Shown here in pieces: positions 1 to 59,910 of a stretch of DNA of 64,000 nucleotides. Origin of the DNA: Eledone cirrhosa. Its lineage: Eukaryota. The number at the start of each line of letters is the position of its first letter. Position 1 is the stretch's first letter. The notes under the pieces were generated by a model. That model was not told the DNA's origin. It did not search any database and saw only the letters and a list, made by a program, of their open reading frames with translations. The DNA lies in the NCBI GenBank assembly GCA_964016885.1, contig OZ024741.1, forward strand, positions 177,506,001 to 177,570,000. Reading direction: 5' to 3'. The translations under genes and the position numbers were made by a program.

Positions 1-62
1 GCCCAGGATTATCTGTTACAAACACACTCAGGGCGAAACAGATTAGGGATAATCTGTCCGAG
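1..62 (+). ncRNA. 3' part of a hammerhead ribozyme (CUGANGA core would lie just outside the window)
   Basis: GCCC(1-4)/GGGC(31-34) stem II, then GAAA(35-38), stem III CAGATTA-GGGA-TAATCTG, and a GTC cleavage triplet ending at 58. Confidence 0.5.
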
Positions 63-300: not shown

Positions 301-1262
<962 letters not shown>

Positions 1263-1515
1263 AAGCATTTTGAAGACCGTAAGCTATTGTTTTAAAGTAG
1301 TGACAAATTCACTCACTTTGATCTCAGCAAACGGTCTTCAAAATGCTTTTAATTAAGCATAAAGTGTATTGCAAAATACATTATATATACATCCATATAT
1401 ATATTGCTATTTCAGAGCTCCAATTCTAATTTTTAATTTCTGCCTGACCAACAACCGCTCTGTATAATCAGTTCCTGATTATTTACTAGAATTCTATAAG
1501 AATATAACATCAAGT

Positions 1516-1610
1516 GATCTCGGTAGACAGGAGAGAGTAGTTAGCCTTGATAAGCTTGAACAAAAGCGAAACAAGGCCTTGTCGGCTTATCTCCCCTGTT
1601 TGCTGAGATC
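1516..1610 (+). ncRNA. Type I hammerhead ribozyme, U3-A8 variant, GUC site at 1583
   Basis: AGCC-[TTGATAA]-GCTT gaacaa AAGC-GAA-ACAAGGCCTTGT-C-GGCT. Distal stem I GATCTCGGTAGACAGG pairs with CCTGTTTGCTGAGATC using G-U pairs. Confidence 0.8.
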
Positions 1611-1833
1611 AAAGTGAGTGAATTTGTCACTACATTAAAACAATAGCTTACGGTCTTCAAAATGCTTTTAATTAAGCATACAGTGTATTGCAAAATACAT
1701 TATACATACATCCATATATATATTGCTATTTCAGGGCTCCAATTCTAATTTTTAATTTCTGCCTGACCAACAACCGCTCTGTATAATCAGTTCCTGATTA
1801 TTTACTAGAATTCTATAAGAATATAACATCAGT

Positions 1834-1928
1834 GATCTCGGTAGACAGGAGGGAGTAGTTAGCCTTGATAAGCTTGAACAAAAGCGAAACAAGGCCTTGT
1901 CGGCTTATCTCCCCTGTTTGCTGAGATC
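1834..1928 (+). ncRNA. Type I hammerhead ribozyme, second copy, GUC site at 1901
   Basis: Core identical to the 1516-1610 copy, 318 nt downstream. Confidence 0.8.
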
Positions 1929-2066
1929 AAAGTGAGTGAATTTGTCACTACTTTAAAACAATAGCTTACGGTCTTCAAAATGCTTTTAATTAAGCATAAA
2001 GTGTATTGCAAAATACATTATATATACGTCCATATACATACATACATACATACATACATACATACA

Positions 2067-2776
2067 TGGTGGCTGCCAACTCGTTTTCGAGTACGGCCAC
2101 TACTTTATATCCATGTAGGAGAACCCCTACCGATGCGCTGAACGAGTGTGACTTTTTAGTCTAGCCAGCGACTTGAAAACTCTGGTACAAACACTACACC
2201 TGTGACAATTATTGACACATAGTGCTGGGCCCATGGTACCATGTGACGACAAGTGCAGAGAGATCACCAGATATAAAGTAATGCCTGTGCCGTGAAGCTT
2301 TTATAGTGATACATACATACATACATACATACATACATACATACATACATACATACATACATACATACATGGTGGCTGCCAACTCGTTTTCGAGTACGGC
2401 CACTACTTTATATCCATGTAGGAGAATCCCTACCGATGCGCTGAACGAGTGTTACTTTTTAGTCCAGCCAGTGACTTGAAAACTCTGGTACAAACATTAC
2501 ACCTGTAACAATTATTAACACATAGTGCTGGGCCCATGGTACCATGTGACGACAAGTGCAGAGAGATCTCCAGATATAAAGCAATGCCTGTGCCGTGAAG
2601 CTTTTATAGTGAGCAAAGGCACTGCACAAAGCCAGTCCCACTCTCTTAACCAAAATGATATTTACCAAAAAGAAGAACAAGTCAACATCATTGGATACCA
2701 TCAGGGTTGCAGGTGTTATATCAGAGTTTTCCTTCTCCTAGAATTCTGCCTTAACAAAGGCTAAGGGGTCATCTCT
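2067..2776 (-). mobile_element. Two copies (2067-2309, 2369-2776) of a non-coding retroposed element in (CATA)n, probably minus strand with an (ATGT)n tail
   Basis: The copies share the left end exactly and differ in right extent, as expected for 5' truncation on the minus strand. A terminal stem-loop GTGGC..ACTCG-AAAA-CGAGT..GCCAC sits next to the tetranucleotide tract. Confidence 0.55.
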
Positions 2777-13109: not shown

Positions 13110-14410
13110 AAATATTAAGTAATAAATGATATCCATCCAACACTGAGCGTCATAATAATAACAATAGTAAGTCCGACGTCAATGTTAACTCTAGGCTAGA
13201 TTCCGTAAATTTAAATACGACGTCAAACGTAACTTTGTCGAATGTTCATAATACCAATCTAAATCAGGAAACTTTAGCACCTATCGTAAGTAACTTCTCC
13301 AAATCAATTCCTTCTACAAATAATACTGGGTCACTTGCTAATAACTCTGGTAATTTCCCTAATCGTATTTGCAATTGCCCTATTAGAACTAAATGTCCTC
13401 TTAGTAACCAATGTCTTGATAACATTTTAGTGTATGAATGTGAAGTTATAACTGGTACTAATTATTTTACCTATTTTGGTTCCACTTCCACTTCCTTTAA
13501 AGCAAGATTTTATAATCACAATTCCTTTTTTAAATACCAACTTAAAAGAACTAACACGGCACTCTCAGAACTTATATGGTCCTTAAAGGACAAAAATATT
13601 AACTACAACATTTTTGGAGGAAGGTTTTCAACGCCTCTCCTTACCTTATTTCTTCCCTATCAAGAACATGTAATCTCTGCCTAGCGGGAAATTTACCATT
13701 ATCTCTAATTTTAATTCTATAATAAATAGACGTACGGATTTATTTTCGCTCTGCTTGCATAATCCCATAGAACTTTCTATAAAGTATACAGCTAATATCT
13801 TACTACCTTATTAGTTTAAAATCTTTTAGCAAACGCTTTTATAATTTTTACAAATATACCCATCTTTCTACCTTATTTCTGTATATTATACAATATTACT
13901 CATACTATGTCGTTAATTTTCTTCTTTTTTAATTTATAATCTTTCTATTTATCTATCTTTCTAATTTTTTTAAAATTATGTATTATCTTACAACGGTTTT
14001 CTTTTTAAATTTATCTCTGTGAGACAGTGTTTCTCAGTATTAAAAGTTATCTCTCTCTCTCTCTCACTCATTTTCACCTCCTATCTCATCCTTCCTTCTT
14101 TTACTCCTCCCCCGTCATCCTTTCCTTATTATTATATATATATTTTTTCTTAAACCCTATATTCTTTCTTCCACTTCTTTACCTCTTCCTTCCCCCTTCC
14201 TTTCCTTTTTTCACAATCTCATATATCCATCTTATTTCATTTTTCATATGTTGATTTAACACTTCACTCCACGCAAATGTTTTTTAAGCTTCATATCATG
14301 TCTCCCTATTTTATCTGATGAGAACGCAAATATCATCTCATGATGATATTTGTTTTTGAAATGCGTATAATAAAATACATGGAACTCTTTTAACCATCTT
14401 TTGATTTTAT
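13110..14410 (+). mobile_element. Penelope-like element remnant: GIY-YIG endonuclease plus 3' hammerhead
   Basis: ORF 13235-13684 reads CNC..CPL..QCL..VYECEV..YFGSTSTSFKARFYNHNSFF..TALSELIWSLK, matching the PLE GIY-YIG pattern. No RT is present. Confidence 0.8.
14307..14377 (+). ncRNA. Type I hammerhead ribozyme of the PLE 3' end
   Basis: TATTTTAT-CTGATGA-long stem II-GAAA-TGCGTA-TA-ATAAAATA. Stem I is 8 bp and stem III is quasi-palindromic. Confidence 0.75.
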
Positions 14411-56857: not shown

Positions 56858-58940
56858 TAATAAAAAGGACGATTTGTTACGTTTCATTATGTTTATTGAT
56901 TAGTGTCGCACGTTTCGCTGTTAATCAGCTCAAGGTTCAATCTGTATCGATCTAGCCCGAGAACTGTGGCTAGTAGGTGAAAGAGATATTTTATAAATAA
57001 ATAGATGATTAGATAACCAAATTAGTTACTACACTAACTATATGGGCTAACATATACACACATACGCACCCACACCACACTAATATACAAATATACATAG
57101 CTACAGACATGTGTACGTATATACGTGTATATACATACACATGTCTGTAGCTATGTATATACGTATATACGTACACATATCTGTACCTATGTATATATAC
57201 ACATACTCAGATATATACGTACTCACTGTCATAGACACACATACATACACACACGTCGGCCTGCATCGACGTACTGATGCGTGTATATATGTACTAGTAA
57301 TAGGCATAGAGAAATATCCTACAGGAATATATGGTGGTCTAAAAGTTTAGGTGAATATCCATAAGAAGGGTGAAAAGCTTTGATAGAGAGGGGACTGAGG
57401 TTAACTGGACATGCTCACCGACATCCAGAGTTGACATTGCACTCAGTACTCCTTTGGGAGCCCTTACATGGACACACTAGAAGAGGAAGACCAAGGTTAA
57501 CGTATGTTGTTGCCCTAAGGACAGACACTGGTCTGTTGGAGAGGCAGGACATGGCAGCGATAATGAGGGACAGAGACCGCTGGAGAGAACTCGTCCATGG
57601 ATCTCGGGAATTTTACCCGCCTTAGATAGATAGATATATGGTTAATAAGACGGGAAATGTTAATAGTAACAGAATAATAATCGTAATTGAAATAATAACG
57701 ATGATAGAATTGATGATACAAATGAAAGTAATGATAATAATTGTGGTAATTGATAGGATGCTGGTGCAGTGTGTGAGATGGCTGATGTGTGCTGTGCGTG
57801 TTCAGGTGGGTGGAAGTGTTTAATACATAGTGATATGTTTAATAATGAGGGACATCATAAACAATATAATAGTAACAAGAATAACAATGATAATAAATGT
57901 AACAATGTTAATGATGATGATGATAAAGTTGATGAGACATAATAATCATTTTTTTATAATTAAGAGGATGTCGTGTATGTGACTTGTGATGTTTGTGTTC
58001 AAGTGGTTCAATTGGGATCTGTCGTTGGTTTATGTCCGAATACCAGGGTGGACAATGTATGTTTTTTGCGTGTCGGCAGTTCACGAAAATTTCCGATTTT
58101 AATTTAATGATCTCTGTCGATTCCACCAAGCAAAGCCGTTGGAATGTTGGACCACACTTCCCCTTATGGACCATTTGATCTGGTATTTCAGGTTTCTATC
58201 GTTGAGGTCCTCAATCAGGTCGACCAGTCTAGTATGGGAACGCTTAGGTAGGTGGTTGAAGTCGCTCATTGAATGTGATACCAAAAACCCCTTTAATATA
58301 TATCTTTCATATACTAGCCACACCACAGAAAACATATGTCCCCCTAACCTCAGTATCATCATCCGATCTTCTTTCTCATAGTATTCTTATCCTTAACTTT
58401 TGTTTAATTTACTTTTATTTATTTCTCTCTAACAAACATATGACCAACACAAAACACAACTCCCTTTGGTCTTGCATTGCACCCTTACATCTCTCATTAC
58501 TTATCGCTCCTTATTACCTCTACAATCTTACTCGGCACCTTCGATTCGCCACATAGACGCCATAATGGCTATGAAACAGCCAAAACACCACATCCTCACA
58601 ACAGACACCAACTATTGCTTCCCACCACCATCTCTCTCTCACCATCTCTTCATTATAAACCTTCCCCTCACATATCACACATACCCACACATTTCTTCCA
58701 GCAAAGCCACCCATCAAAACAAACTTAAACTGACCACCATAAATAAATGTGAATCGTTATATACTATTTCTATGCCCTAAGATGTTAATTCACTCATTAC
58801 CACAACAGAGGTCCGGCGAAATTTTGATTCCAGAGTCGAGGTAGATCTATACAGATCAAACCTTGAGCTGATCAATAGCGAAACGTGCGTCACTACTCAA
58901 TAAACACAATGAGGACGTTAACAAATCGTTCTTTTTATTA
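56858..58940 (-). mobile_element. Decayed Penelope-like element (GIY-YIG C-terminus at ~58040-58330) with inverted ends 56858-56958 and 58840-58939
   Basis: Minus strand reads DFNHLPKRSHTRLVDLIEDLNDRNLKYQIKWSI and RLCLVE..KSEIFVNCRH. An outer inverted pair lies at 56771-56853 and 59833-59915. Confidence 0.65.
57385..57622 (+). mobile_element. RTE-type LINE 3' end, same family as 50055-50633
   Basis: RGLRLTGHAHRHPELTLHSVLLWEPLHGH..GRPRLTYV; same 3' terminus, followed by (TAGA)n. Confidence 0.85.
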
Positions 58941-59078: not shown

Positions 59079-59130
<52 letters not shown>

Positions 59131-59135
<5 letters not shown>

Positions 59136-59773
59136 AGTATATTTGGCAATATACCGTATGTTTATTTTAAAACATTTTGAAGAACTTGCGCTCTCATTCT
59201 TGAAGTAGTGACTATGTCACTTACTTCTTTTTTCGGCAAAAGAAGGGAGAGAAGCTGACAGATTCTGTTTCACGCTGTTGGCAATCCTCAGAGCATCGTA
59301 TTCACCACCTTTGCCGAAAATTATAGAGGCTGGATTCTTATTGAATTCCAATAATAACCAGGAACTGATTAAGCAGAGCGATTGCCGGTCTAGCAAAATT
59401 TAAAAATTAGGATTGGTGCTCTGAAATAGCGATGCATACATGAATGTATGTATAGTATATTTGGCAACATACCGTATATTTAATTAAAAACATTTTGAAG
59501 ACCTTGCGCTATCATTTTTAAAGTAGTGACTATGTCACATACTTCTTTTTTCAGCAAAAGAAAGGAGAGAAGCTGACAGATTCTGTTTCACTCTGTTGGC
59601 GATCCTCAGAGCCTTTGCCAAAAATTATACAGGCTGGATTCTTACAGAATTCCAGTAATAATTAGGAACTGGCTAATTATACAGAACGTTTAATTAAACA
59701 TACAGTATATTGCCAAATATACTATACATACATTCATGTATACATCGCTATTTCAGAGCACCAATCCTAATTT
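59131..59773 (-). mobile_element. Second retrozyme-like locus: 318-bp tandem units plus an inverted partial unit (59689-59773)
   Basis: TGTATAGTATATTTGGCAA at 59131 and 59449. Homologous to the reverse complement of 1332-1650. Minus-strand hammerheads at 59253-59294 and 59571-59612 (GCT-CTGAGGA-..-GAA-ACAGAATCTGT-C-AGC). Confidence 0.78.
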
Positions 59774-59910
59774 ATGTATATATATATATATATATATATT
59801 TATTTAATCTGTTATTTTAATAAATATTTGCTCTACGGTTCTTATATATTTGATATATATTTATCCTTATCGAGCCCTCTTTGGATTTTAGTCTTCAAAT
59901 TTATTAGTAT

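What the first reader, a model, noticed from the sequence alone, without database searches (positions are those of the whole stretch)
59131..59773. A diverged sister locus keeps the 318-nt period and shows structural covariation (C3-G8 vs U3-A8)
Seen: 57 kb away on the opposite strand, a clearly diverged homologue has predicted cleavage sites at 59257 and 59575, again exactly 318 nt apart. Its core is canonical CUGAGGA. Stem III is ACAGA-A-UCUGU (vs ACAAGGCCUUGU) and the distal stem is UUUUCGGCAAAG/UUUUGCCGAAAA (vs GAUCUCGGUAGAC/GUUUGCUGAGAUC), so sequence changed while pairing was kept. Both loci have an inverted partial unit at their 5' end. Inference: selection acts on RNA fold and monomer length, and the 5' inversion points to mobilisation by Penelope-like machinery, remnants of which are in this window.
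Basis: partly seen in the sequence, partly recalled or inferred. Interest (0 to 1): 0.8.

Follow-up and report, generated by a model that had tools for sequence, protein, structure and literature searches.

The report
Penelope-hitchhiking hammerhead retrozyme, decayed copy
This is one ageing copy among thousands of a 314-321-base non-coding repeat carrying a predicted self-cutting hammerhead RNA, a known kind of animal element (retrozyme), and its insertion ends match those of Penelope-like jumping genes in the same genome, which likely copy it around.

Summary
In detail: a type I hammerhead on the minus strand (C3-G8 core, cut site 59257), a second cut site at 59575, and an inverted arm (59689-59773). 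The locus at 1262-2030 is a 76-79% identical relative with a U3-A8 core. These are not a special pair. Both belong to one non-LTR retrozyme family with at least 3,348 copies and at least 7 subfamilies. Covariation is real but modest: 3 of 96 proposed pairs pass a tree-aware test, and none passes genome-style all-pairs correction. Selection acted on the founder lineages; inserted copies decay neutrally, and both ribozymes here are damaged. Selection on length is not supported: subfamilies span 314-321 nt, and 318 = 318 has P about 0.2-0.3. 110 of 197 loci are inverted, 229 of 276 3' ends abut (TA)n, and in 80 of 84 inverted loci exactly one arm carries a 34-nt tail. Autonomous GIY-YIG elements in this genome show the same pattern. 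No partner was found by sequence and no RNA data were available. Class, U3-A8 and the PLE hypothesis are published; I did not find the tail evidence in print. The scan noted similar PLE-type ends in other genomes.

The parts
59131..59448 (-). Complete 318-nt monomer of retrozyme subfamily B, ending at the 'short' 3' end against (TA)n
59228..59324 (-). Type I hammerhead with long stem I; core CUGAGGA from 59291, predicted cut after 59257; U-U at the base of stem II; palindromic stem III; post-insertion changes weaken stems I and II
   Evidence: (88.7 bits)
59449..59686 (-). 5'-truncated second unit (partial tandem); 20 mismatches and a 14-nt deletion against the complete unit
59546..59628 (-). 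Damaged second hammerhead; core from 59609, C17 at 59575; 14 nt of stem I missing, stem II mismatch
   Evidence: 54.3 bits
59689..59773 (+). Inverted, 5'-truncated arm: last 40 nt of a unit plus first 45 nt of the next
59738..59771 (+). 34-nt tail, present on the inverted arm only
59079..59130 (.). (TA)n microsatellite, left half of the inferred target
59774..59800 (.). (TA)n microsatellite, right half of the inferred target
1331..2030 (+). Related locus, subfamily A: two units plus a partial one; hammerheads 1513-1611 and 1831-1929, core UUGAUAA, C17 at 1583 and 1901
1262..1332 (-). Inverted arm of the subfamily A locus, cut short before either standard 3' end
13370..13612 (+). GIY-YIG endonuclease remnant of a Penelope-like element (context only; no sequence link to the retrozyme)
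   Evidence: tblastn 47% over 81 aa, E 2e-20, to an ORF in L125; Pfam gave no hit for this ORF

Best explanation
The locus is an old, damaged insertion of a high-copy non-coding repeat with a type I hammerhead fold (a non-LTR retrozyme) that is likely copied in trans by the reverse transcriptase-endonuclease of a Penelope-like element (PLE) into (TA)n microsatellites. Shown: copy number, subfamilies, partial-tandem and head-to-head structure, two fixed 3' ends 34 nt apart, (TA)n flanks, compensatory changes on founder branches, neutral decay of copies. Inferred steps: (1) tandem copies are transcribed as multimers; (2) the hammerheads cut out monomers, probably as double hammerheads because stem III is palindromic through its loop (about 0.65); (3) monomers are circularised by a host ligase, as published for mussel and axolotl; (4) a PLE protein nicks both strands of (TA)n and starts reverse transcription inside the RNA, at the short site from one strand and at the tail site from the other, which gives one tailed and one untailed arm; (5) the template is a circle or an uncut multimer, since arms run through the cut site (about 0.6 for a circle). 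The helper is most likely a PLE with the Zn-finger linker (Neptune/Nematis type; about 0.6).
For: Family: 2,543 and 1,594 first-look candidates for the two window units; 3,348 exact pattern matches, control 0; the pattern catches 71 of 108 top-scoring monomers. No ORF over 41 aa, GC 0.34-0.39. Architecture: 110 of 197 loci head-to-head inverted (48 of 79 in the pattern-drawn C1 sample); of 84 with both ends classifiable, 80 short+tail, 4 short+short, 0 tail+tail (P 2e-19 against 50%); 229 of 276 3' ends followed by (TA)n against 461 of 3,960 background positions; 4 of 305 5' breakpoints lie within -2..+4 of the cut site (about 7 expected). Autonomous RT+GIY-YIG loci show the same short/tail arms in (TA)n in 5 of 11 examined (tails about 33-35 nt in three, read by eye, and 64 nt in two); their minimal hammerheads have U3-A8 and a palindromic stem III in 12 of 12 matches. 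Structure: 95.3% of cells paired, 11 of 27 pairs changed on both sides in 24 sequences; core 3:8 pair C-G in 46, U-A in 39, other in 6 of 91, and it switched at least twice on a tree built without the ribozyme columns; deep branches keep pairs in 27 of 39 changes, tips in 60 of 173 (P 1e-4); core changes 0 on deep branches (3.1 expected), 15 on tips (17 expected). Stem III: 21 of 26 positions that cannot pair in a hairpin are complementary. Literature: the tail marks two RT start sites and both strands are extended (PMC11167929).
Against: No autonomous PLE sharing sequence with the repeat was found in 50 GIY-YIG loci or 61 loci by nhmmer, out of 10,595 candidates. No pair reaches E<0.05 when all 50,721 column pairs are tested; the best true pairs rank 2, 3 and 8. 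Outside the ribozyme no proposed pair is significant (best E 0.13). Cleavage, circularisation and expression are untested; in the Xenopus preprint only 1 of 9 predicted retrozyme dimers cleaved. 26 of 110 inverted loci have one arm ending elsewhere, including the window's subfamily A locus. Six of 11 PLE loci did not show a clear short/tail pair. Loci were picked by best BLAST score or exact pattern, which favours intact copies. The stem III types are related by descent, so 21 of 26 is not a count of independent events.
Confidence: 0.85

Rival explanations
1. The unit is the detached terminal repeat (pLTR) of an autonomous PLE, and the loci are just truncated stumps of that element, not an independent non-autonomous lineage.
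For: The architecture is that of PLE ends. The Xenopus preprint finds 24 of 57 retrozyme families homologous to annotated TEs, nearly all PLEs, at their termini. Only a small share of the genome's PLEs was examined.
Against: Arms read upstream run into another copy of the unit, up to seven near-identical 316-nt units, not into coding sequence. The 5' flanks printed differ from locus to locus. The hammerhead has a long stem I, unlike the minimal PLE hammerheads of this genome. At least seven subfamilies evolve as a unit-length lineage.
Confidence: 0.08
2. A SINE-like repeat moved by a LINE (APE-type LINEs are abundant in this window), with inversions made by twin priming.
For: LINE remnants with RVT_1, Exo_endo_phos and zf-RVT fill much of 22-50 kb. 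5' inversion by twin priming is known for L1 (recalled).
Against: Both arms carry the element's own 3' end pointing outwards, which twin priming of one linear RNA does not give (recalled mechanism). There is no poly(A) end. There are two fixed ends 34 nt apart, distributed one per arm, as in PLEs of this genome. No Pol III B box, and T4+ runs occur in every consensus.
Confidence: 0.04

Closest known systems
Animal non-LTR retrozymes (Cervera & de la Pena 2020, PMC7229834; read: results and discussion, parts 2-4 of 6, plus term searches; supplement not readable)
   Same: Type I hammerhead in a non-coding tandem unit of 170-400 nt, GC under 50%, thousands of copies, PLEs in the same genome. The U-U pair at the base of helix II also occurs in axolotl HHR_Amex2. 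Dimeric cleavage is described for amphibian motifs.
   Different: No sequence comparison with the published families was possible here. The main text has no mention of tails, inverted arms, microsatellite targets or covariation. Here arrays are mostly 1-3 units in head-to-head insertions, and stem III is longer (3-5 bp as a hairpin) yet still palindromic.
Non-LTR retrozymes as non-autonomous PLE derivatives (Li, Clavereau & Pollet, bioRxiv 10.64898/2026.07.22.740005; read: parts 1-3 of 5, abstract to discussion; supplements closed)
   Same: Same conclusion: retrozymes depend on PLEs.
   Different: Their evidence is co-occurrence and pLTR homology, mainly in vertebrates; 'tail', 'target site' and 'palindrom' do not occur in the text. 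Here the evidence is the insertion footprint, and no pLTR homologue was found.
Penelope-like element insertion structure (Craig et al. 2021, PMC8557442, passages; Frangieh et al. 2024, PMC11167929, parts 1-2 of 4)
   Same: Partial tandem, inverted 5'-truncated copy, 30-40-bp tail often at one end, (TA)n bias; tail lies between two RT start sites; start in an AC-rich stem-loop (the short end here lies in a predicted hairpin with an AC-rich loop, one pair C-G in 65 and U-A in 39 of 133 copies, not significant by itself, E 0.85). Non-autonomous multicopy PLE derivatives such as MRC1 are described.
   Different: No RT or GIY-YIG ORF; a full-size hammerhead, not a minimal one; no shared 3' sequence with an autonomous family found, whereas non-autonomous Chlamys elements generally have one.
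Natural U3-A8 hammerheads and palindromic stem III dimers (Perreault et al. 2011, PMC3088659, passages; Cervera & de la Pena 2014, PMC4209133, part 1 of 4)
   Same: C3-G8 to U3-A8 covariation and palindromic loop 3 are both reported.
   Different: Here both core types occur inside one element family at similar frequency, with at least two switches.

Membership tests
Non-LTR retrozyme | Type I hammerhead with canonical core and helices I-III | tested here: met
   core intact at 59291, helices damaged in this copy
Non-LTR retrozyme | Tandem unit of about 150-450 bp, dispersed in many copies | tested here: met
   314-321 nt; 3,348 pattern matches; arrays up to 7 units
Non-LTR retrozyme | Non-coding, GC under 50%, no long terminal repeats | tested here: met
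   longest ORF 28-41 aa, GC 0.34-0.39; ends defined; PBS/PPT not searched separately
Non-LTR retrozyme | Self-cleavage of the transcript | not testable with these tools
   fold and covariation only
Non-LTR retrozyme | Expression as linear and circular monomer RNA | not testable with these tools
   no RNA holder listed
Non-LTR retrozyme | Long target-site duplication when present | not tested
   most ends lie in (TA)n, where a duplication cannot be read
PLE-type insertion (non-autonomous) | Partial tandem with inverted 5'-truncated copy | tested here: met
   110 of 197 loci
PLE-type insertion (non-autonomous) | 30-40-bp tail at one end | tested here: met
   34 nt in subfamilies A-D; 80 of 84
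PLE-type insertion (non-autonomous) | AT-rich / microsatellite target | tested here: met
   229 of 276 against 461 of 3,960
PLE-type insertion (non-autonomous) | 3' sequence shared with an autonomous partner | tested here: inconclusive
   none in 50-61 loci of 10,595 candidates
Autonomous Penelope-like element | ORF with RT and GIY-YIG endonuclease | tested here: not met

The most novel reading that the evidence does not exclude
This family records the PLE reaction on a retrozyme template: a PLE dimer primes both target strands on one circular retrozyme RNA at two internal sites 34 nt apart, always one site per strand, so internal initiation is what lets an end-less RNA circle retrotranspose. 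The ribozyme works as an obligate or preferred double hammerhead and turns over about 3.6 times faster per site than the PLE-recognition part among founder lineages.
Probability: 0.4. Interest if true: 0.68.

Novelty: new member of a known kind. Interest (0 to 1): 0.43.

Why it matters
Which machinery moves animal retrozymes has been argued from co-occurrence and pLTR homology. Here a retrozyme carries the PLE-specific tail, inversion and (TA)n footprint in large numbers, with a near-strict one-tail-per-insertion rule. That gives a short, defined RNA and two predicted start sites for an existing in vitro PLE assay, including the test of a circular template. The family is also a natural series of hammerhead variants (both core pairs, many stem II and III types). 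The finding as first written, one diverged copy with the same period, is ordinary.

Tried and rejected
Rfam scan: no hammerhead match, only AT-repeat matches to miRNA/snoRNA models. RNA evidence: no RNA holder listed; four contig runs of unrecorded kind were laid, used only as a lead to a stem III variant, not as evidence on expression or species range. Autonomous partner by blastn and nhmmer: all strong hits were retrozyme copies inserted near PLE ends. All-pairs covariation test: nothing at E<0.05. One search had one hairpin mis-indexed; one search fixed it but mis-registered 4 of 96 pairs of another hairpin, which only adds noise. One search's duplicate filter wrongly dropped loci; one search replaced it (22 loci left out as overlapping, non-element or one complex array, 1 at a locus edge). 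Selection on length: rejected. Pile-up of 5' ends at the cut site: not seen. Pol III B box: none. A covariance-model search of the whole genome was not available, so more distant subfamilies lacking the 15-nt anchor may be missed. Literature searches found no report of this family or of tails on retrozymes; most subscription papers, Repbase/Dfam and the supplements of PMC7229834 and the preprint were not visible and may hold either.

Full report
Observation. A scan for hammerhead cores with three helices finds the motif on the minus strand with core CUGAGGA at 59291 and C17 at 59257, and two on the plus strand with core UUGAUAA and C17 at 1583 and 1901. A second minus-strand core at 59609 has C17 at 59575. 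Both spacings are 318. The monomers align with 242 identities, 65 mismatches and 11+11 gap letters. The inverted arms are at 59689-59773 and about 1262-1332. Rfam does not detect these motifs. A model built from 24 relatives scores the three complete ribozymes at 88-89 bits and the partial one at 54.

State of this copy. The complete unit differs from its subfamily consensus at 19 of 318 sites, five of them in the ribozyme domain; that domain folds at -26.1 against -37.5 kcal/mol for the consensus. The second unit lacks 14 nt of stem I and has a mismatch in stem II, and the two units differ at 20 of 223 aligned sites. This is an old insertion and is unlikely to release a monomer (inference).

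Family. The window lies in a 3.0-Gb genome. The two window units return 2,543 and 1,594 first-look candidates. Flanking hits and a variant lead gave further subfamilies. An exact gapped pattern matches 3,348 places, control 0, and catches 71 of 108 top-scoring monomers, so the true number is higher. I fetched 80 of the 87 distinct places among the first 100 listed matches as a sample not ranked by similarity. Two copies 57 kb apart are unremarkable; a third (L148) lies about 45 kb beyond the window.

Length. Consensus lengths are 318 (A), 318 (B), 321 (C), 314 (D), 316 (E), 320 (F) and 318 (G). Of 93 sampled ribozymes, 46 were in full units: median 318, interquartile 314-320, range 302-321, 6 exactly 318. 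A and B differ by eight 1-nt indels; net zero has P 0.27 with random signs, 0.18 for the window copies. B and D are 95% identical and differ by 4 nt. Length is narrow because of descent and the lack of large indels in founders, not demonstrably because 318 is selected.

Covariation. In 24 sequences from five subfamilies 95.3% of cells pair and 11 of 27 pairs change on both sides; slid controls pair 38-52%. In the pattern-drawn sample the 3:8 pair is C-G in 46, U-A in 39, other in 6 of 91 parsed. On a tree from non-ribozyme columns subfamily C (U-A) nests among C-G lineages, so the pair switched at least twice (the tree is poorly resolved within clades). A home-made R-scape-like test on 133 monomers finds no pair at E<0.05 among all 50,721 pairs, and 3 of 96 proposed pairs when only those are tested: core 3:8 (E 0.002), one stem II pair (0.0008), one stem I pair (0.04); slid controls 0. 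On branches with four or more descendants 27 of 39 changes at paired sites keep pairing and 12 are double; on tips 60 of 173 and 9 (P 1e-4 and 3e-5). The four core positions not fixed by my pattern change 0 times on deep branches (3.1 expected) and 15 times on tips (17 expected). So founders were under selection and inserted copies are not. On deep branches the ribozyme domain changes at 1.58 per site against 0.44 for the rest; on tips 5.26 against 3.84 (alignment error may inflate this). The whole monomer folds far better than shuffles (z -6.2 to -7.3 as a circle; -3.4 to -5.5 without the ribozyme), with single compensatory pairs in three 3' hairpins that are not significant alone.

Stem III. 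Nearly all recurrent types are palindromic through the loop: 21 of 26 positions that cannot pair within a hairpin are complementary over 18 types seen twice or more, 14 of 16 over the 11 types seen four times or more, and duplexes are predicted far more stable than hairpins. One such position runs A-U, G-U, G-C across types. This points to double-hammerhead cleavage, which is known (PMC4209133; PMC3088659). The types are related, so this is supporting, not statistical, evidence.

Insertion footprint. Among 197 loci, 110 are head-to-head inverted, 85 single-orientation, 2 other; in the pattern-drawn sample 48 of 79 are inverted. There are two 3' ends, 34 nt apart. Of 84 inverted loci with both ends classifiable, 80 have one of each, 4 two short ends, none two tails; 26 more have one arm ending elsewhere. 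229 of 276 such ends abut (TA)n, against 461 of 3,960 background positions. 5' breakpoints do not collect at the cut site (4 of 305). The finding's locus is typical: short end at 59130, tail at 59738-59771 on the inverted arm, (TA)n on both sides.

The helper. GIY-YIG matches give 10,595 candidates; long ORFs with RT, a CX4CxxC linker and GIY-YIG were read from 20 fetched loci. In 5 of 11 loci whose repeated ends I examined, the arms show the same short/tail pairing in (TA)n. Their minimal hammerheads have U3-A8 and palindromic stem III in 12 of 12 matches. The linker places them in Neptune or Nematis by the description in PMC8557442; I built no RT tree. No sequence link to the retrozyme was found. 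The window holds a GIY-YIG remnant at 13370-13612.

Mechanism. PMC11167929 shows that a PLE protein cleaves and extends both strands, starts inside the RNA at two sites, and that the tail is the stretch between them. Applied here (inference): one strand primes at the short site, the other at the tail site, on a circle or uncut multimer, giving a partial tandem with an inverted arm. Independent choice of site would give at most half mixed loci, so the two primings appear coupled.

Comparison and verdict. The class (PMC7229834), the PLE hypothesis (preprint), U3-A8 and palindromic stem III are published. Tails and inversions on retrozymes do not appear in those two main texts or in my six searches. 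Earlier notes of this scan describe PLE-type ends on other small elements in other genomes; none exist for this genome. New member of a known kind, with unusually clean footprint evidence; interest 0.43.

Noticed in passing
window 58200-58940 (+): 3' end of another high-copy repeat (3,295 candidates) with a hammerhead-like 3' half, ending at (TA)n in relatives; a GIY-YIG-like ORF lies upstream in the right orientation in 1 of 12 loci. Probably a PLE end sharing the target with the retrozyme.
   Followed up: partly
window 400-800 (-), core at 527; also 14315 (+), 51096 (+), 9786 (+): Further hammerhead-type cores in other repeats, probably PLE terminal repeats.
   Followed up: partly
window 1-60: Reverse strand suggests the 3' half of another hammerhead with a long stem III, cut by the window edge (read).
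   Followed up: no
window 24000-48600: Four to five diverged copies (60-90%) of an APE/RT/zf-RVT LINE about 5.8-6.0 kb long in head-to-tail array, which suggests target-specific insertion.
   Followed up: no
L131:6718-8001: A different tandem repeat, period about 480-510 bp, with a CUGAUGA hammerhead-like core: possibly a second retrozyme family.
   Followed up: no
G000:C1:6519941-6521851 (L174): Seven subfamily E ribozymes 316 nt apart; six full units differ at 0-1 sites: a very young multimer insertion.
   Followed up: partly
subfamily D (L141-L170): Many copies have U in place of C at the cleavage position 17 (13 of 93 in the sample).
   Followed up: no
window 2073-2561: Tandem duplication of a roughly 290-bp unit ending in (TACA)n, directly after the subfamily A locus (read).
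   Followed up: no
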